A DNA stretch of 64,000 bases from IMG/VR virus record IMGVR_UViG_3300025141_000074; one strand, 5' to 3'. The stretch comes from an uncultured virus (IMG/VR IMGVR_UViG_3300025141_000074) (lineage: Duplodnaviria; Heunggongvirae; Uroviricota; Caudoviricetes). Below are positions 4,873-57,743 of the stretch, one piece after another (the stretch's first letter is position 1; each line of letters starts with the position of its first letter). Under the pieces are notes generated by a model. That model did not search any database. It saw only the letters and a program-made list of their open reading frames with translations, and was not told where the DNA came from. The position numbers and the translations under genes were made by a program.

Positions 4873-6041
4873 TGGTCACATTCACGGATAGGGACGATAG
4901 AAGATCAGCGCATTTGCGCAATCGAGCTATTCAAAATGCTAACGCAGTAAGGGAACGTCGAGCCACTCTGGAGAACCCGGATTGGCTGATGTCCCGTCCT
5001 GCTGATTGGTATACAGAGCTAGACACTCAAGGAGAGCCAAGTAATTGGAGAGCGGCTAAAAATGTTTTACAACATAGACCGGCTGTTACGACTGATATGA
5101 ATGAACAGCGTAACATGTTTCAAATGTTGGCGAATCAGGCAAAAGGTGGTGACCGTGGCGCACGTCTCATTGATACGAGAGACCTTCCTGCGGGTGCACG
5201 AAGAACGGGGAGAACAATGTTTCAAGACCCCTCTAGGGCCCAAGGTTTCCTTGGCGATGTAGGGTCTTTATTTAGTGGCAATAATAGAGCCGCGGTCTAT
5301 GCAGACGAATACAATCCTTTCCCAAAAGCCGGTTTTGGAAAGGACTGGTATAGGGATCAATTCCCCATTGCCTCCGGACTAGGGTCCTTGATGGAAGGAG
5401 CGGAGAATTTTATTCCAGGTGCTACCTGGGCAAAACAATTTTTACCTAAAAGTAAGAGATTGCCTTTGGAGCGCGATCTTAGCTGGGTTCCGGAAGGTGT
5501 CGGAGAATATGATAAAATTCCTGAAATACCTTTCTTGGAAGACCTGACAGAGACGATTGAAGAGGAGACGATTGACGACCGCATTCCTCGGGGGCCGTTT
5601 CCTCCTGGAATCGCTTATCCTGGTTACAACGCGGATATTACCATTACGGATTTACCACCTGAAACTTTTGAGAAACCAACAGACGAGATATTCAATGAAG
5701 AAGTATTTAATAAAGTATTTACACTTCCAGATCCAACTGGCTTCACTAATTTTCCATATGCGTTTGAGGGACCATGGGATTTATTTAAAGCAGCAAAAGA
5801 AAATATGGAAGAAGGTGAATGGACTGACCAAGAACTTTTAGATCGTTTACTTAAAACAGGGTATTTAATAAATAAAACAGGTGGAGAGGATTTGATTTCT
5901 GACATTAATTTAACCGAAGATGATTTTGAAGGAGTTGCATTCGATTTTGATAAAAATTTAGAAGATCAAGCAGAAGCATTAAATGAAATAGAAAGATTAA
6001 AAAATATTCAGAGGGACAATAATTTGTTGTTTGATATATAA
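4872..6041 (+). CDS. Hypothetical protein with acidic C-terminal half
   Basis: 389-aa ORF, translationally coupled on both sides. Confidence 0.7.
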   Translation: MVTFTDRDDRRSAHLRNRAIQNANAVRERRATLENPDWLMSRPADWYTELDTQGEPSNWRAAKNVLQHRPAVTTDMNEQRNMFQMLANQAKGGDRGARLIDTRDLPAGARRTGRTMFQDPSRAQGFLGDVGSLFSGNNRAAVYADEYNPFPKAGFGKDWYRDQFPIASGLGSLMEGAENFIPGATWAKQFLPKSKRLPLERDLSWVPEGVGEYDKIPEIPFLEDLTETIEEETIDDRIPRGPFPPGIAYPGYNADITITDLPPETFEKPTDEIFNEEVFNKVFTLPDPTGFTNFPYAFEGPWDLFKAAKENMEEGEWTDQELLDRLLKTGYLINKTGGEDLISDINLTEDDFEGVAFDFDKNLEDQAEALNEIERLKNIQRDNNLLFDI

Positions 6042-51503: not shown

Positions 51504-52148
51504 ATGGCGCAAGAAAAAGACGGGAAAGTAGTAATAGCGAAGATTCCAATTCAGGATACACGCCTGTTCTACAAGAACTATGATAATTATTCCAATCTCA
51601 ACAACTTGTTGATGACGGAGATAGAGAAGGAAAAGAAAAAGGATCCTAAAGGATTAGAGGCAACCAATCCAGGTTGCTGGAGAAGTATGTTCAAGTACCA
51701 GTGTGAAAAGGAACTGATGAAACCAATTGGAATTATTCTTTCCGCCTGGACGGATCACTACTTGCCAGGAAAGGTCGTGGATGCACAAATAACCTACTGG
51801 ACAAATGTTAACGAGCCAGGTGGGGCCAACATCTTTCACACTCACTACCGTGCGGATGCGGACCTATCCGGTGTCTATTACGTGAAGGGACACGGAACCG
51901 GAGTCATTCGTTTTGCGACGCATGAGCAGATGTACAAGATGATTCCTGTACACATGCCACACGCCAACATGATTGGACACAATCCAACGGACGGTGACAT
52001 ACTGTGCTTTCCATCCTATATATTGCATGATGTGGTACCTAATCCATCGAAGGGACAGCGAATTTCAATTGCGTTCAACGTGAAATTTGCCATCAAGGAA
52101 AAGGATAATGTGGTTCCCTTGACTAAAAAAGTGGAAGAGGGCAAATGA
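51504..52148 (+). CDS. 2OG-Fe(II) oxygenase (TIGR02466-like)
   Basis: WTNVNEPG...HTH...LSGVYYV...FPSYILHDV.PN...RISIAFN. Confidence 0.85.
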   Translation: MAQEKDGKVVIAKIPIQDTRLFYKNYDNYSNLNNLLMTEIEKEKKKDPKGLEATNPGCWRSMFKYQCEKELMKPIGIILSAWTDHYLPGKVVDAQITYWTNVNEPGGANIFHTHYRADADLSGVYYVKGHGTGVIRFATHEQMYKMIPVHMPHANMIGHNPTDGDILCFPSYILHDVVPNPSKGQRISIAFNVKFAIKEKDNVVPLTKKVEEGK

Positions 52149-52384
52149 TGGACGTTTGGGACCCAGGAGAGGAAACGACGGTATTCCGCCAAATAAAAAA
52201 GCTCATATCTCGCTCCTATCGGGGTTTAAAAGGTTGGGTGGTGTGTTTGTACCCGGGTAATTTAGTGTTTTTGGCCAAAGACTGGTTCTATTCACTATGT
52301 GAGCATTATGGTGGGGCCATCAGCTGCTGGGCATGGCAAAAGCGTTGGAGTAAACAAAATAGAAAGAGATACAAGCATGGTTAA
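52145..52384 (+). CDS. Hypothetical protein
   Basis: Coupled ORF; ISCWAWQKRW. Confidence 0.55.
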   Translation: MMDVWDPGEETTVFRQIKKLISRSYRGLKGWVVCLYPGNLVFLAKDWFYSLCEHYGGAISCWAWQKRWSKQNRKRYKHG

Positions 52385-52694
52385 AATGGAATGGAAGCAA
52401 GAAGACTTAGAGCTTGCTGGTGAACTAATTAAGAATCATACAGCAACTGAAGTTGGAAAAATTTTTAACAAATCTAAAAACGCTATCCTTGGTGTTCTTT
52501 ATCGAGAGAAAATAAAAAATGGTTATGTGCCAGCTCCTGATTCTCCATATTCAAAAGCACGGATGAGAAATAGATTCAAGAGTGATCCGGCATTGGGTGA
52601 AATGAAATGCTACATATGTTCAACGACTTTTACCAGGTCCGGACGATTTGATCGCTTCTGTTATGAATGTAGAAGGACGGGACGAGTTGCGTGA
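52377..52694 (+). CDS. GcrA-like HTH regulator with C-terminal Zn finger
   Basis: MEWKQEDL...TATEVGKIFNKSKNAILGVLYR resembles the GcrA N-terminal domain; CYIC...CYEC. Confidence 0.6.
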   Translation: MVKMEWKQEDLELAGELIKNHTATEVGKIFNKSKNAILGVLYREKIKNGYVPAPDSPYSKARMRNRFKSDPALGEMKCYICSTTFTRSGRFDRFCYECRRTGRVA

Positions 52695-53092
52695 TAGAAA
52701 GGAAGTTAGATAAATATGTACAAGTACTTAACAACATTGATGACGCTCAAGATAAATTTGTTTGGATTATGGATTTTGGAAAAAATTCCAAGCCAATGGA
52801 AGACGAAAACAGGACTAGATATTTTGAAGTTCCAGGCTGTCAATCACAGACGTGGTTGGTACCGCATTTTATTGATGATAAAATATATTTTACTGCTGAT
52901 TCAGCTGCACTTATATCTAAGGGCATGGTCTGTATCATTGCGGATGTGTACAGTGGATCTACGGCCCAGGACATAAATGATTTTGATCAGAGAGAATTTG
53001 AAAAAATGAATCTTAATACATTATTAACACCAGGTAGAAATAATGGTGTTAATAGTATGTTAAAAAAAATTAAATATTATGCTACAGAATAA
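52691..53092 (+). CDS. sufE: SufE-family sulfur acceptor protein
   Basis: VPGCQSQTWL, ADSAALISKG, LLTPGRNNG. Confidence 0.88.
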   Translation: MIERKLDKYVQVLNNIDDAQDKFVWIMDFGKNSKPMEDENRTRYFEVPGCQSQTWLVPHFIDDKIYFTADSAALISKGMVCIIADVYSGSTAQDINDFDQREFEKMNLNTLLTPGRNNGVNSMLKKIKYYATE

Positions 53093-54514: not shown

Positions 54515-54770
54515 TTATTTTCCTCGTAAATATGTTTTATGAGGTTGATATTTTAACCATTTTCTGAATTTATACCAGATATTTCTGATTCTTCGTGCCA
54601 TTGTTGTCCTATTAAAAAGGGGACCCTCCCGCAACGAATGCGCGAAAAGAGTCCACCGAGATGAAATGAAGTTGAGAACTATTATATACTTGACAAGTTG
54701 TTTCAACGCAAGAAATAACTTATTTTTTACTTGACACGGTTTTTGGCTGATTTCCGGGATAATTATTTAC

Positions 54771-54799
54771 TTGATATATCCCATAATTTACTGTATAAT
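54771..54799 (+). promoter_or_regulatory. sigma70-type promoter
   Basis: TTGATA 54771-N17-TATAAT 54794. Confidence 0.7.
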
Positions 54800-54841
54800 A
54801 TGGGCAACAAAGAAAGAATAATATTTGCAAATATTATTTCC

Positions 54842-55000
54842 TTCTGGCTGAACAACAAGTGCAAAGTTGTAAAGCAATGGCTCCGGGGGATATGTCCAAA
54901 TGGATGAAGGACTGGGGTTAGGTACTGAGTACCGTTATCATTTGAAAGGATGATTTGCCGGGAAAGGTTGGGGGTGCGTTCATCCAAGACCCTCGGAGGC
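54842..55000 (+). ncRNA. Candidate structured leader RNA (~160 nt)
   Basis: GC-rich island with six or more helices, a GAAA tetraloop, and 8-bp TGGATGAA/TTCATCCA pairing; ends at the GGAGG RBS. Confidence 0.6.
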
Positions 55001-55006
55001 TTTGTT

Positions 55007-55273
55007 ATGAAATGGAATGAGATGTTAAAAGATATGTTAAGTTTAAAAAAGTTTGATGAATGGCTGAACAAGTCACACAGGGGCCACCGAATCTCCTACT
55101 ACAGGGGATTCATCTTTGCGCCGAATGAGCAGAAGCTATCACCCACGCTTGACTTCAAGCGCGTGGAAAAGCTAGCCAAGCACGTACGCAAAGCCTTCAA
55201 CAACCACCTCGTTACACTGGTACAAAAGAAGCATGATAATTTTGATTATGAATACATTGCGGTGCGTCTATGA
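55007..55273 (+). CDS. Hypothetical protein
   Basis: GGAGG 54995-99, ATG 55007; ISYYRG...LVQKK...YEYIAVR. Confidence 0.7.
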   Translation: MKWNEMLKDMLSLKKFDEWLNKSHRGHRISYYRGFIFAPNEQKLSPTLDFKRVEKLAKHVRKAFNNHLVTLVQKKHDNFDYEYIAVRL

Positions 55274-56097: not shown

Positions 56098-56427
56098 ATG
56101 AATAATTACATGTCAAAAAACGAATTAGCTGAATCGCTTGGGATTAGTCTTGCAACGATTAATCGCAAACTAAAAGAAATTCCTCATGTAAAAATGGGGG
56201 GTGTCCAACAAAGTAGGGTATTATTTGATCCTGAAAAGATTAAGAAATATCTTAAAAAATTTGAAGTTAACCTACCCATGGATAAAAAAGATTCGGAACG
56301 TGATTTGAGTTGGGCACAAAATTTTTGGCCTTACCATGACAAAGAAGGCACGATAGTCTTTCTTAACGAAGTGAATCCAAATAACAAGCGTGATCAACAG
56401 CAATGGGGCAGAATTTTAGATGGTTGA
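56098..56427 (+). CDS. Excisionase/AlpA-like winged HTH DNA-binding protein
   Basis: YMSKNELAESLGISLATINR...IPHVKMGG...RVLFD. Confidence 0.7.
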   Translation: MNNYMSKNELAESLGISLATINRKLKEIPHVKMGGVQQSRVLFDPEKIKKYLKKFEVNLPMDKKDSERDLSWAQNFWPYHDKEGTIVFLNEVNPNNKRDQQQWGRILDG

Positions 56428-57129: not shown

Positions 57130-57499
57130 CTTATGGCAAAATAAAAAGGTTATCGAGAAGGTAGTCAAGCAGTTTGAGGGTGATGAGAAGGTGCTGGAAT
57201 TTATCAAGAACAATTTTGATAAGGATGAGGAATTACCTAGACTGGACCGCGAAAAAGGATATCTTCGTCCTAAAAAGAGTGATATAATAATTACATGGTC
57301 AAAAGTAGCTACTTATGTTCGCAAAAATGCACCAAAGAGACTGGGTCTCAATGAGCAGGAAGAGGAGCTTAAGGATACATTGGATAAGTCAATTACCCAG
57401 GAGACTATTAATGAATGGGGTAAAAATGAGATGTTTAGGCAAGTAAGAAAGCATTATTGGGGTCACCCCAATGCAAAAGGACAAGAAGATATTAGATAA
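57110..57499 (+). CDS. Hypothetical protein
   Basis: Overlapping ORF in the same operon. Confidence 0.6.
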   Translation: MQTYEINLWQNKKVIEKVVKQFEGDEKVLEFIKNNFDKDEELPRLDREKGYLRPKKSDIIITWSKVATYVRKNAPKRLGLNEQEEELKDTLDKSITQETINEWGKNEMFRQVRKHYWGHPNAKGQEDIR

Positions 57500-57515
57500 G
57501 CGACTAGGATGGACG

Positions 57516-57743
57516 ATGAAAAAGAACACGAAGAAGGAAGGATTGACACCCAAGCAAAAATGGGTGTTTGAGGCCATCAAGGACTTCATTCAACAGAATG
57601 GACATTCACCCTCTTATGAGGAGATCAAGCAGCTGATGGGGGTACGCTCCAAGAGTAATGTGCATGCATATGTGCATAGATTAGCGACACGTGGATGGAT
57701 AGGATTTGGAAATGGCAGAAATCGGTCAATTTACATTTTATAA
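57516..57743 (+). CDS. LexA-type DNA-binding domain protein (no peptidase domain)
   Basis: LTPKQKWVFEAIKDFIQQNGHSPSYEEI...GVRSKSNVHAYVHRLATRGWI...RSI. Confidence 0.8.
   Translation: MKKNTKKEGLTPKQKWVFEAIKDFIQQNGHSPSYEEIKQLMGVRSKSNVHAYVHRLATRGWIGFGNGRNRSIYIL

What the first reader, a model, noticed from the sequence alone, without database searches (positions are those of the whole stretch)
54842..55009. Complex leader RNA with two alternative folds, one masking the RBS
Seen: a GC-rich island ~40 nt after a strong promoter. Fold A is a multibranch closed by TTCTGGC 54842-48/GCCGGGA 54957-63. It contains ACAAC/GTTGT (54852-70), GGCTCCGG/CTGGGGTT (54879-919), GGTAC/GTACC (54921-33) and ATCATTT-GAAA-GGATGAT (54937-54). 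A 3' hairpin GGGGGT 54970-75/ACCCTC 54989-94 follows, and its loop TTCATCCA (54979-86) is the exact complement of TGGATGAA (54901-08), giving a pseudoknot. In fold B, CTCCGGGGG 54881-89 pairs with CCCTCGGAG 54990-98 and covers the GGAGG RBS of the ATG at 55007. I cannot match it to a known riboswitch or ribozyme class. Inference: a novel riboswitch-like element, ribozyme or standalone phage ncRNA heading the small-gene operon.
Basis: partly seen in the sequence, partly recalled or inferred. Interest (0 to 1): 0.75.

Follow-up and report, generated by a model that had tools for sequence, protein, structure and literature searches.

The report
New pelagiphage double-pseudoknot RNA family
The flagged stretch is a real, strongly conserved folded RNA that sits at the very start of transcripts in many ocean phages related to phages of SAR11 bacteria; it matches no known RNA family, folds differently from the first proposal, and its job is still unknown.

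Summary
The element is real and far beyond chance, but the fold is not the one proposed. Window 54806-55006 (+) lies directly after an 11-of-12 sigma-70 promoter. A covariance model finds it in 79 of 80 long loci. It is also in cultured Pelagibacter phage HTVC008M and in phage 023Pt_psg01.

On 70 representatives, 93.8% of cells pair, against 72.6% when shuffled. The supported fold is a closing helix P1 interrupted by hairpin P0, then P2, P3/P3a, P4, P4b/P5 and P6. Two pseudoknots cross it: P2 loop with the strand after P5, and P6 loop with the P5 3' strand. The second competes with P5.

GGAGG is the 3' strand of P1. Rfam 15 has no match, and the element is non-coding.

Best reading (0.45): an autonomous, promoter-linked structured RNA module shared among several pelagiphage-like lineages. 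Main rival (0.3): a riboswitch-like cis leader.

The parts
54771..54799 (+). sigma-70-type promoter (TTGATA, 17 nt, TATAAT); the inferred transcript start is near 54806
   Evidence: 11 of 12 matches. A match of at least 10 of 12 lies at the equivalent place in 31 of 62 unique related loci, against 2.4% of control windows. The transcript start is inferred, not measured.
54806..54812 (+). P1a 5' strand (AACAAAG), pairs with 55000-55006
   Evidence: Found in the MFE fold. It covaries by eye, e.g. ACGAAAG/CTTTCGT and TTTCGGA/TCCGAAA. The flank duplex is -6.1 kcal/mol for own pairs against -2.5 for swapped pairs, over 59 unique loci.
54816..54839 (+). P0 hairpin (10 bp, loop TGCA 54826-29) inserted between P1a and P1b
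   Evidence: A hairpin of -4 kcal/mol or better lies at this place in 51 of 59 unique loci. The loop holds TGCA in 74 of 82 cases and another self-complementary tetramer in 7.
54840..54844 (+). P1b 5' strand (CCTTC), pairs with GGAGG 54995-54999
   Evidence: 99.7% of cells paired, 5 of 5 pairs with changes on both sides (e.g. columns 3/178: CG 31, GC 28, UA 8).
54847..54875 (+). P2 hairpin: 54847-49/54873-75 and 54852-56/54866-70, with a GA/AA internal loop and a 9-nt loop at 54857-65
   Evidence: 100% paired but invariant. It was part of the search motif, so this is not independent evidence.
54861..54865 (+). PK1 5' strand (GCAAA in the P2 loop), pairs with TTTGC 54954-58
   Evidence: 99.4% paired, 5 of 5 pairs compensatory. 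An unbiased partner scan finds this partner in 67-68 of 70 sequences. It is also kept in subfamily C as AAGCG/CGCTT.
54878..54920 (+). P3 (54878-86/54912-20) enclosing P3a (54894-97/54902-05, loop AAAT) and the conserved strands TATG and TGA(A/G)G
   Evidence: P3 is 93.3% paired with 9 of 9 pairs compensatory. P3a has 3 pairs compensatory (e.g. UA 32, GC 31).
54923..54931 (+). P4 mini-hairpin (TAC/GTA, loop TGA)
   Evidence: 81.9% paired, no covariation. The nucleotides are conserved, so the helix is unproven.
54932..54961 (+). P4b (54932-34/54959-61) closing P5 (54937-43/54948-54 or a slipped register) and the PK1 3' strand 54954-58
   Evidence: P4b is 92.3% paired with 3 of 3 pairs compensatory. 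A P5 hairpin is predicted in nearly all of 70 sequences.
54962..54969 (+). conserved single-stranded linker G-AAAGGTTG
   Evidence: Invariant or nearly invariant columns.
54970..54994 (+). P6 hairpin (54970-74/54990-94). Its loop TCATCC 54980-85 forms PK2 with GGATGA 54948-53
   Evidence: P6 is 100% paired with 2 pairs compensatory. For PK2, 60 of 70 sequences have at least 5 contiguous pairs; the observed mean is 5.77 against 4.69 +/- 0.11 permuted, with 0 of 1000 permutations as high. It covaries in subfamily C as CTTGG/CCAAG, GTTGG/CCAAC and ATTGG/CCAAT.
54995..55006 (+). 3' strands of P1b (GGAGG) and P1a (CTTTGTT), ending at the ATG of 55007
55007..55273 (+). first downstream ORF (88 aa, no known family). 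Its true start may be ATG 55022 or 55034
   Evidence: Homologues begin at the residues that follow 55034.

Best explanation
SHOWN. Window 54806-55006 encodes one member of an undescribed, widespread family of phage RNAs.
- It starts at or next to +1 of a consensus sigma-70 promoter.
- It folds into a closed globular structure. P1 joins the transcript's 5' end to the 3' end of the element, and P0 branches off P1.
- A core of about 165 nt follows (P2, P3/P3a, P4, P4b/P5, P6), tied together by two pseudoknots.
- One strand, GGATGA(T) 54948-54, has two conserved, mutually exclusive partners: the P5 5' strand and the P6 loop.
- The same promoter-plus-RNA module occurs in at least four unrelated phage lineages whose nearest cultured relatives all infect SAR11 (Pelagibacter). 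It is present or absent among close relatives.

INFERRED (about 0.45). The RNA is an autonomous functional unit, in effect an 'RNA moron', whose function does not depend on the gene behind it.
- Host RNA polymerase makes it early.
- It folds with both ends paired, and so is protected.
- It acts by binding something through its conserved unpaired core. That could be a host factor, a small molecule or another copy of itself. The P5/PK2 exchange would be its conformational switch.
- In this window, its closing helix also buries GGAGG and abuts ATG 55007. Translation from that ATG would therefore need unfolding or processing. This is a lineage-specific side effect rather than the family's purpose.
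For: Family and structure.
- at least 120 plus 18 motif hits; 79 of 80 long loci confirmed by the model, one copy each.
- 93.8% paired against 72.6% shuffled and 34-45% when slid; 30 of 48 pairs compensatory.
- Searches support the two pseudoknots.
- stops in all three forward frames in 66 of 70 sequences, and lengths are not multiples of 3.

Autonomy.
- In subfamily C, 7 of 15 loci, and the annotated record of phage 023Pt_psg01, have an opposite-strand ORF ending 3-4 nt after the RNA. Five of the seven have no co-oriented ORF of 50 aa or more within 470 nt; the other two (L254, L246) have a 51-aa co-oriented ORF 216 nt downstream.
- 6 of 59 unique loci have a new consensus promoter between the RNA and the next gene.
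- One locus (L113) has an intrinsic terminator right after the RNA.
- Downstream genes are heterogeneous: an 88-aa unknown family in 19 loci, a 294-aa unknown in 9, gp32-type SSB in 7, gp2.5-type SSB in 7, plus peroxiredoxin, an HTH protein and others.
- Close relatives keep the same promoter and gene without the RNA (L008, L009).

Lineages.
- HTVC008M, a T4-like phage, carries the RNA.
- The window's large terminase is 64% identical to HTVC027P.
- The L030-type primase is 79.5% identical to HTVC115P.
- The L045-type polymerase is 47.7% identical to HTVC033P.

Expression.
- Contigs of 159, 180 and 170 nt from RNA libraries of three studies lie wholly inside the element and start at 54818-54820. 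This shows presence in RNA libraries and gives a weak hint of a discrete species.
Against: - In 66 of 70 evaluable loci of the main subfamilies, a co-oriented ORF of 50 aa or more starts within 150 nt, as expected of a cis leader. Phage genomes are dense and co-oriented anyway, which weakens this point.
- No terminator-like site lies within 110 nt downstream in 0 of 59 unique loci, so most copies are not classical stand-alone genes.
- No partner, ligand, target or catalytic activity is known.
- Contigs cannot give strand, ends or abundance, and no DNA run was laid beside them.
- A riboswitch driving antisense read-through could also explain the convergent copies. That precedent is recalled, not tested here.
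- The host assignment rests on protein similarity to cultured pelagiphages. The RNA itself was found in only one cultured phage.
Confidence: 0.45

Rival explanations
1. It is a cis-acting riboswitch-like leader. The conserved core is an aptamer for an unknown ligand or factor. Binding shifts the P5/PK2 balance and stabilises P1, which controls the downstream genes. Control would act by RBS occlusion in the window's lineage, and by read-through or antisense transcription elsewhere.
For: - It lies in the 5' UTR, co-oriented with a gene within 150 nt, in 66 of 70 loci.
- It is a P1-closed multi-helix junction with pseudoknots, invariant unpaired nucleotides and variable peripheral stems.
- It has conserved, mutually exclusive pairings.
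- In the window, the P1 3' strand is GGAGG followed by CTTTGTT, then the ATG.
- In relatives such as L032 and L033, the P1a 3' strand could alternatively pair with an A-rich region at the RBS (by eye).
Against: - No conserved expression platform: 0 of 59 loci have a terminator-like site within 110 nt.
- Many lineages have a free Shine-Dalgarno sequence beyond P1.
- The regulated genes share no theme.
- Some copies face convergent genes (7 of 15 in subfamily C), and 6 of 59 have an intervening promoter.
- P1 uses the very 5' end of the transcript in all subfamilies. In my recollection that is more typical of stable RNAs.
Confidence: 0.3
2. It is a self-cleaving or otherwise catalytic RNA that processes the 5' end of early transcripts. 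For example, it could release itself and leave an mRNA with a changed 5' end.
For: - It is a compact double-pseudoknot fold with invariant junction nucleotides.
- It has phage-borne, patchy, cross-lineage distribution without gene association. By recollection, this resembles several self-cleaving classes.
- Short contigs in RNA libraries are confined to the element (a weak hint).
Against: - No match to any Rfam ribozyme family.
- No conserved cleavage-site signature could be identified.
- Contig ends differ (54974, 54994, 55000) and cannot define RNA ends.
Confidence: 0.1
3. It is a processive antitermination RNA that modifies RNA polymerase and acts in cis, working like the put RNAs of phage HK022. 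The nascent RNA would bind the polymerase that made it and carry it through terminators of the long co-oriented operon.
For: - It is always promoter-proximal.
- In the window, almost all genes lie on the + strand downstream of this promoter.
- A terminator directly after the RNA in L113 would fit a promoter-RNA-terminator order.
Against: - The architecture is far larger and different from the two stem-loops recalled for put.
- Convergent copies lead into no operon.
- Some copies are followed by a fresh promoter.
- It is also present in a T4-like phage, upstream of a single SSB gene.
Confidence: 0.07
4. It is a passive 5' stabiliser: a stable structure that pairs the 5' end and protects early mRNAs from 5'-end-dependent decay.
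For: - P1a pairs the first nucleotides of the transcript.
- The P0 hairpin sits at the 5' end in 51 of 59 loci.
Against: - A simple hairpin would be enough for that. It does not explain 165 nt of covarying helices, two pseudoknots and invariant unpaired nucleotides.
- It does not explain copies with no downstream gene.
Confidence: 0.05
5. One reading: fold A, closed by TTCTGGC/GCCGGGA with an 8-bp pseudoknot 54901-08/54979-86, alternates with fold B, which masks the RBS.
For: All these pairings are possible in the window's own sequence. The 8-bp pseudoknot recurs in the window-like and AGTCA-loop clades; 25 of 70 sequences have at least 5 contiguous pairs.
Against: The pairings score no better than shuffled or permuted controls: 67.1% against 66.7%, 51.3% against 50.8%, and 4.49 against 4.39 with 253 of 1000 permutations as high. 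The strands involved are claimed by P1b, P3, P4b and PK1, which do covary.
Confidence: 0.03

Closest known systems
Orphan large structured RNAs from metagenomes and phages (IMES-1 to -4, GOLLD, ROOL, HEARO, raiA; names recalled, membership tested through Rfam)
   Same: It was found only by comparative analysis. It has a complex covarying fold. It is marine and/or phage-borne, and is present in marine RNA libraries. Its function is unknown.
   Different: No match to any of the 4227 Rfam 15 models, either at gathering score over the whole window or at E up to 10 on the + strand of 54600-55200. It is smaller (about 200 nt) than GOLLD or ROOL. It is tied to +1 of a sigma-70 promoter.
Riboswitch aptamers with a P1-closed junction and pseudoknots (generic class; glmS ribozyme as a size and double-pseudoknot analogue, recalled)
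   Same: It has 5' UTR placement in most copies, a P1 closing helix, pseudoknots, invariant junction nucleotides, variable peripheral stems and mutually exclusive helices.
   Different: It has no ligand, no conserved expression platform and no gene theme. Some copies have no downstream gene. It has no sequence or structure match in Rfam.
Translational operator of T4 gene 32 (a 5' pseudoknot followed by an A/U-rich leader; recalled)
   Same: In HTVC008M and 7 IMG/VR loci the RNA lies upstream of a gp32-type SSB gene, separated by a 68-101 nt A/U-rich spacer.
   Different: It is a 165-nt multi-helix fold, not a small H-type pseudoknot. Most copies, including the window's, are not next to an SSB gene.
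HK022 put RNA / lambda nut sites (promoter-proximal cis-acting antitermination RNAs; recalled)
   Same: It lies immediately downstream of early promoters, in the direction of long operons.
   Different: The size and architecture differ. Some copies are convergent or followed by a new promoter. No antitermination was tested.
manA and wcaG RNA motifs of marine phages (recalled; both are Rfam families)
   Same: They are structured RNAs in 5' regions of marine phage genes.
   Different: No Rfam match. The hosts differ: cyanophages there, pelagiphage-like contigs here.

Membership tests
Any Rfam 15 family (4227 models, including known riboswitches, ribozymes, IMES, GOLLD, ROOL, manA, wcaG, 6S, tmRNA) | Covariance-model score at or above the family's gathering score | tested here: not met
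   0 matches in the whole window; at E up to 10 there are only two matches, both on the minus strand (SNORA40 at 17.6 bits against a threshold of 51; mir-703 at 15.5 against 88). Both are chance-level.
Riboswitch (generic) | Conserved structured aptamer with covariation | tested here: met
   93.8% paired, 30 of 48 pairs compensatory, and two pseudoknots.
Riboswitch (generic) | Consistently upstream of, and co-transcribed with, the genes it controls | tested here: inconclusive
   66 of 70 loci have a co-oriented ORF within 150 nt. However, 7 of 15 subfamily C loci are convergent, and 6 of 59 have an intervening promoter.
Riboswitch (generic) | Expression platform whose structure excludes part of the aptamer (terminator or RBS sequestration) | tested here: inconclusive
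   In the window, P1 covers GGAGG and abuts the ATG. There are 0 of 59 terminator-like sites within 110 nt. The P5/PK2 competition lies inside the core.
Riboswitch (generic) | Specific ligand binding | not testable with these tools
   This needs in-line probing, ITC or a similar method.
Self-cleaving ribozyme | Site-specific self-scission | not testable with these tools
   Only contigs were available; they cannot define ends.
HK022 put-type antiterminator RNA | Two adjacent stem-loops of about 70 nt just downstream of an early promoter, acting in cis on the transcribing polymerase (recalled definition) | tested here: not met
   Promoter proximity is met. The architecture is a 165-nt multi-helix double pseudoknot. 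Some copies lead into no operon.
T4 gene 32 operator | Lies in the leader of the phage SSB gene | tested here: not met
   Met only for subfamily B: HTVC008M and 7 of 80 loci. The window's copy precedes an 88-aa unknown protein.
The new family itself (model R1) | Full-length match to the covariance model built from 70 homologues | tested here: met
   window 54838-55001, 153.6 bits, E 3.6e-35; it is the single hit in 64 kb. The window sequence was in the training alignment, so the match is partly by construction. Independent members score 72-165 bits.

The most novel reading that the evidence does not exclude
This is a phage 'RNA moron': a promoter-plus-RNA cassette traded among the ocean's most abundant phages. 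It makes a globular double-pseudoknot RNA that self-associates through the self-complementary P0 loop, and acts in trans during SAR11 infection as an RNA-only or RNA-host complex. It could be a sponge for a host factor or signalling molecule, or a new ribozyme. The evidence for self-association is the P0 loop tetramer: TGCA in 74 of 82 cases, with all 7 interpretable exceptions carrying another palindromic tetramer, including TTGCAA changed to TTCGAA.
Probability: 0.2. Interest if true: 0.9.

Novelty: new variant of a known kind. Interest (0 to 1): 0.8.

Why it matters
- Phages of SAR11 are among the most numerous biological entities in the sea. Here one structured RNA is shared by a T4-like myovirus and at least three unrelated podovirus-like lineages whose nearest cultured relatives are pelagiphages.
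- It is driven by a consensus promoter and is present in marine RNA libraries.
- Such cross-lineage, patchy distribution is what one expects of an accessory device aimed at the common host.
- The fold has unusually clean comparative support: two pseudoknots with every pair compensatory.
- It has a built-in pair of exclusive helices, so it is a good candidate for structure determination and ligand or partner hunting.
- It is present in a cultured phage-host pair (HTVC008M and Pelagibacter HTCC1062), so the open question of what it does is directly testable.
- It also corrects an annotation: a 'hypothetical protein' in HTVC008M overlaps the promoter and the RNA.

Tried and rejected
- **Rfam:** no match at gathering score or at E up to 10.
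- **blastn against cultured phages:** the 801-nt region gave nothing. The core alone gave only a weak HTVC008M hit (E = 6), which the model then confirmed. Cores of three other subfamilies gave nothing.
- **Own assembly:** not held. The nearest record, G001, has no match.
- **Host genomes:** the genome-contig scan gave one real copy on a 9.7-kb MAG contig and one chance hit inside a Pseudidiomarina coding region. No taxonomy was returned, so there is no host evidence from that route. SAR11 genomes could not be searched for a host homologue.
- **Model R1 against cultured phages:** negative in HTVC027P, HTVC023P, DSL-LC04, HTVC115P, HTVC033P and HTVC104P.
the closing helix, 8-bp pseudoknot and fold B are rejected by covariation.
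- **P0 as a DNA operator palindrome:** only 13 of 76 regions have a spacer-free perfect palindrome of half-length 6 or more, and the stems use G.U pairs. It is therefore read as an RNA hairpin.
- **A fifth P3a pair (54898/54901):** rejected, because it would leave a 2-nt loop.
- **Terminator scan:** none within 110 nt in 59 loci.
- **RNA-library contigs:** none covered the promoter or the downstream gene. As the tool warns, a part without cover proves nothing.
- **First gene product:** Pfam, PHROGs and the Atlas gave no function.
- **Literature:** five searches and passages of three papers gave no description of this RNA. Subscription papers and supplements were not seen.
- **Earlier findings of this scan:** none.
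Full report
**Observation.**
- A TTGATA-17-TATAAT promoter at 54771-54799 scores 11 of 12. The region as a whole has no excess of promoter-like sites (13 found, 15.2 expected), so only this site's score stands out.
- GC rises from about 0.31 to 0.49 over 54875-55024.
- On its own the sequence folds only modestly better than shuffles: -61.1 kcal/mol, z = -2.76, with 4 of 200 shuffles as good. The case therefore rests on homologues.

**Homologues.**
- The 88-aa protein behind the element has 23 IMG/VR loci. I gave 17 of these to the covariance model. Eight carry a full-length copy of the RNA and one (L003) a deleted remnant.
- L008 and L009 have the same promoter joined directly to the gene. L011 has a different, shorter element. 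The other five (L016, L017, L018, L023, L025) gave no match; three of these (L016, L017, L025) hold only a short stretch upstream of the gene.
- Of 112 usable copies I kept 70 representatives below 96% identity.
- A variant motif finds 18 more loci, which I call subfamily C. Seventeen of the 18 match the model.
- Of 80 loci fetched again with long flanks, 79 have exactly one model hit. The 80th is a false motif hit.
- The window has a single copy: 54838-55001, 153.6 bits.

**The supported fold.** I used a MAFFT alignment, which is not fitted to any structure (A3: 70 sequences, 180 columns).
- 93.8% of cells form standard pairs, against 72.6% after shuffling partners and 34-45% when partners are slid by 1-3 columns. 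Thirty of 48 pairs change on both sides.
- P1b: 54840-44/54995-99, 99.7% paired, 5 of 5 pairs compensatory.
- P2: 54847-49/54873-75 and 54852-56/54866-70. It is invariant, but it was the search motif, so this says nothing.
- P3: 54878-86/54912-20, 9 of 9 pairs compensatory.
- P3a: 54894-97/54902-05.
- P4: 54923-25/54929-31. It is conserved but shows no covariation.
- P4b: 54932-34/54959-61, 3 of 3 pairs compensatory.
- P5: a hairpin present in nearly all sequences, in varying register.
- P6: 54970-74/54990-94.
- Outside the core, AACAAAG 54806-12 pairs with CTTTGTT 55000-06 (P1a). The equivalent flanks give -6.1 kcal/mol for own pairs against -2.5 for swapped pairs over 59 unique loci.
- Hairpin P0 (54816-39) sits between P1a and P1b in 51 of 59 loci.
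- P1 therefore joins the first nucleotides of the inferred transcript to the last nucleotides before ATG 55007.

**Two pseudoknots.**
- PK1 pairs GCAAA 54861-65 in the P2 loop with TTTGC 54954-58, the strand between P5 and P4b. It is 99.4% paired, and all five pairs are compensatory.
- An unbiased scan for partners of the P2 loop finds this site in 67-68 of 70 sequences. PK1 persists as AAGCG/CGCTT in subfamily C.
- PK2 pairs the P6 loop TCATCC 54980-85 with GGATGA 54948-53. Sixty of 70 sequences have at least 5 contiguous pairs. The observed mean run is 5.77, against 4.69 +/- 0.11 when loops are permuted among sequences; 0 of 1000 permutations reach it.
- In subfamily C, PK2 covaries as CTTGG/CCAAG, GTTGG/CCAAC, ATTGG/CCAAT and CTGG/CCAG.
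- GGATGA is also the 3' strand of P5, so P5 and PK2 exclude each other. Both are conserved, which gives a genuine two-state element inside the core.

- The closing helix plus 8-bp pseudoknot give 67.1% paired against 66.7% shuffled.
- The 8-bp pseudoknot partner gives a mean run of 4.49 against 4.39 permuted, with 253 of 1000 permutations as high. It recurs only in clades where the conserved TGGATGA-like strand happens to resemble the P5 3' strand.
- Fold B gives 51.3% against 50.8%.
- GGAGG is indeed covered, but by P1b. In relatives this strand becomes GGTAG, GATAG, TACTC or GAGAG, with matching changes opposite.
- In several GGAGG-bearing relatives the next start codon is too far away for GGAGG to serve as its Shine-Dalgarno sequence.
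- Homologues of the first protein begin at the residues after ATG 55034, so the start at 55007 is itself uncertain.

**Not coding, not known.**
- 66 of 70 cores have stops in all three forward frames, and their lengths vary from 155 to 170 nt without period 3.
- Rfam 15 gives nothing at gathering score in the window. At E up to 10 it gives only two chance-level minus-strand matches.
- Five full-text searches and passages of three papers turned up no description. Subscription journals and supplements were not visible.

**Whose RNA.**
- The window is a phage genome. It has a capsid gene, small and large terminase subunits, a family A DNA polymerase, a UvrD helicase, an AEP primase, SufE and a 2OG-Fe(II) oxygenase. 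Almost all of its genes lie on the + strand.
- Its large terminase is closest to Pelagibacter phages HTVC027P (64%) and HTVC023P (56%).
- The RNA is present in cultured Pelagibacter phage HTVC008M, a T4-like myovirus. It lies at 5056-5220 (128.8 bits), after a TTGACA-17-TATAAT promoter and upstream of the gp32-type SSB gene. It overlaps an annotated 56-aa hypothetical CDS.
- It is also present in phage 023Pt_psg01 (78.5 bits).
- It was not found in HTVC027P, HTVC023P, DSL-LC04, HTVC115P, HTVC033P or HTVC104P.
- Two other subfamilies sit on contigs whose replication proteins are closest to HTVC115P (primase, 79.5%) and HTVC033P (polymerase, 47.7%).
- The family therefore crosses at least four phage lineages whose nearest cultured kin infect SAR11, and it comes and goes among close relatives.

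**Context.**
- A promoter match of at least 10 of 12 lies at a fixed distance upstream in 31 of 62 unique loci, against 2.4% of control windows.
- In 66 of 70 evaluable loci of the main subfamilies, a co-oriented ORF of 50 aa or more starts within 150 nt.
- That gene varies. It is the window's 88-aa family in 19 loci, an unknown 294-aa protein followed by a Cas4-like exonuclease in 9, a gp32-type SSB in 7, and a gp2.5-type SSB followed by primase-helicase in 7. Others include a peroxiredoxin and an HTH protein.
- Six of 59 unique loci have a fresh consensus promoter between the RNA and the gene, and none has a terminator-like site within 110 nt. One short-flank locus (L113) does have an intrinsic terminator right after the RNA.
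- In subfamily C, 7 of 15 loci and the annotated 023Pt_psg01 record show the RNA converging on an opposite-strand ORF that ends 3-4 nt after it. Five of the seven have no co-oriented ORF of 50 aa or more within 470 nt; the other two have a 51-aa co-oriented ORF 216 nt downstream.

**Expression.**
- Sixteen RNA-library runs from marine samples hold part of the stretch.
- Contigs of four runs from four studies were laid on it. Whole contigs of 159, 180 and 170 nt lie inside the element (54818-54974, 54820-55000, 54820-54994), one of them identical to the window.
- This shows presence in RNA libraries. Three studies' contigs start within 3 nt of each other, without loose ends, which is only a weak hint of a discrete species. 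The start lies inside the P0 inverted repeat, where assemblers may break.
- Contigs give no strand or true ends, and no DNA run was compared.

**Mechanism.**
- What is shown is a closed, globular, double-pseudoknot RNA made from +1 of a strong promoter. It has a conserved internal switch (P5 against PK2), and it travels as a module among phages related to pelagiphages.
- My best inference (0.45) is an autonomous RNA whose function does not depend on the gene behind it. The reasons are that it can face a convergent gene, can be followed by a new promoter or a terminator, precedes unrelated genes, pairs its own 5' and 3' ends, and is swapped in and out between an unchanged promoter and gene.
- Its conserved unpaired core suggests that it binds a host factor, a small molecule or itself.
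- In the window, P1 also buries GGAGG and abuts ATG 55007. This would hold back translation from that codon unless the RNA is unfolded or cut off.
- The main rival (0.3) is a riboswitch-like leader. That fits the 5' UTR placement and the switch, and could cover convergent copies through antisense read-through.
- Lesser rivals are a ribozyme (0.1), a put-like antiterminator (0.07) and a passive 5' stabiliser (0.05).

**An added lead.** The P0 loop carries TGCA in 74 of 82 unique cases. All 7 interpretable exceptions carry another self-complementary tetramer: GATC, TCGA (as TTCGAA where TTGCAA is usual), CATG or TATA. This is what a kissing-loop homodimer would select for. It is untested.

**Limits.**
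- The alignments were seeded by an exact motif in P2, so divergent members are under-sampled and P2 is uninformative.
- Sequences are related, so shuffle counts are not probabilities. The slid controls and the many pair types carry the argument.
- The transcript start, the RNA ends, strand-specific expression, the host and any activity are all inferred.

Noticed in passing
window 54826-54829 (P0 loop) and equivalents in L026-L145, L148, L239-L256: The apical loop of P0 always holds a self-complementary tetramer. It is TGCA in 74 of 82 unique cases, GATC in 2, TCGA in 2 (TTCGAA in place of TTGCAA), CATG in 2 and TATA in 1. This may be a kissing-loop dimerisation site.
   Followed up: partly
L148 1435-1605 (KC465899.1 4993-5163): The annotated 56-aa 'hypothetical protein' AGE60342.1 of Pelagibacter phage HTVC008M overlaps the promoter and the first two thirds of the RNA. 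It is probably not a gene.
   Followed up: partly
L236 1663-2065 (HTVC115P, between gp22 and the SSB gene): A different GC-richer, apparently structured element occupies the place where sister contigs carry this RNA. It includes a hairpin with a TTGCAA loop, and is followed by a consensus promoter. Model R1 does not match it.
   Followed up: partly
L011-L013, about 160 nt upstream of the protein match at 1501 (roughly 1340-1490); L016 1-70: Sister phages carry a shorter, different hairpin element between the same promoter and the same gene. It shares the short strings ATGTCC and AAGGTTGG with the RNA and may be a reduced derivative.
   Followed up: no
L009, L020, L021, L022 and L039, about 130 nt upstream of the RNA promoter: Relatives carry TGTGGATAA, which matches the DnaA-box consensus as I recall it. 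The window has TTGACAAGT at the equivalent place (54690-98). The divergent intergenic region 54515-54805 also holds three promoter-like repeats. It may be a replication origin or control region.
   Followed up: no
window 55007, 55022, 55034: There are three in-frame ATGs. Homologues of the 88-aa protein begin at the residues encoded after 55034, so the annotated-style start at 55007, and the 54950 ORF extension, are doubtful.
   Followed up: partly
L044 and L062, flanks of the RNA: P1a is extended to a perfect 19-bp duplex (TAGATTAGGTAACCATATG with its complement). This is long enough to resemble an RNase III substrate; that resemblance is recalled and untested.
   Followed up: no
window 57471-57743: A 90-aa protein consists only of a LexA-type DNA-binding domain (Pfam E 5e-15). 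It lies in the small-gene operon headed by the RNA, and an HTH protein lies at 56098-56427.
   Followed up: no
window 51504-53092: Auxiliary-type genes lie just upstream of the divergent region: a 2OG-Fe(II) oxygenase (51504-52148) and a SufE-like protein (52691-53092).
   Followed up: no
window 54624-54650 (minus strand): A terminator-like hairpin with a T-run lies on the minus strand inside the intergenic region, upstream of the leftward genes' start. Its role is unclear.
   Followed up: no
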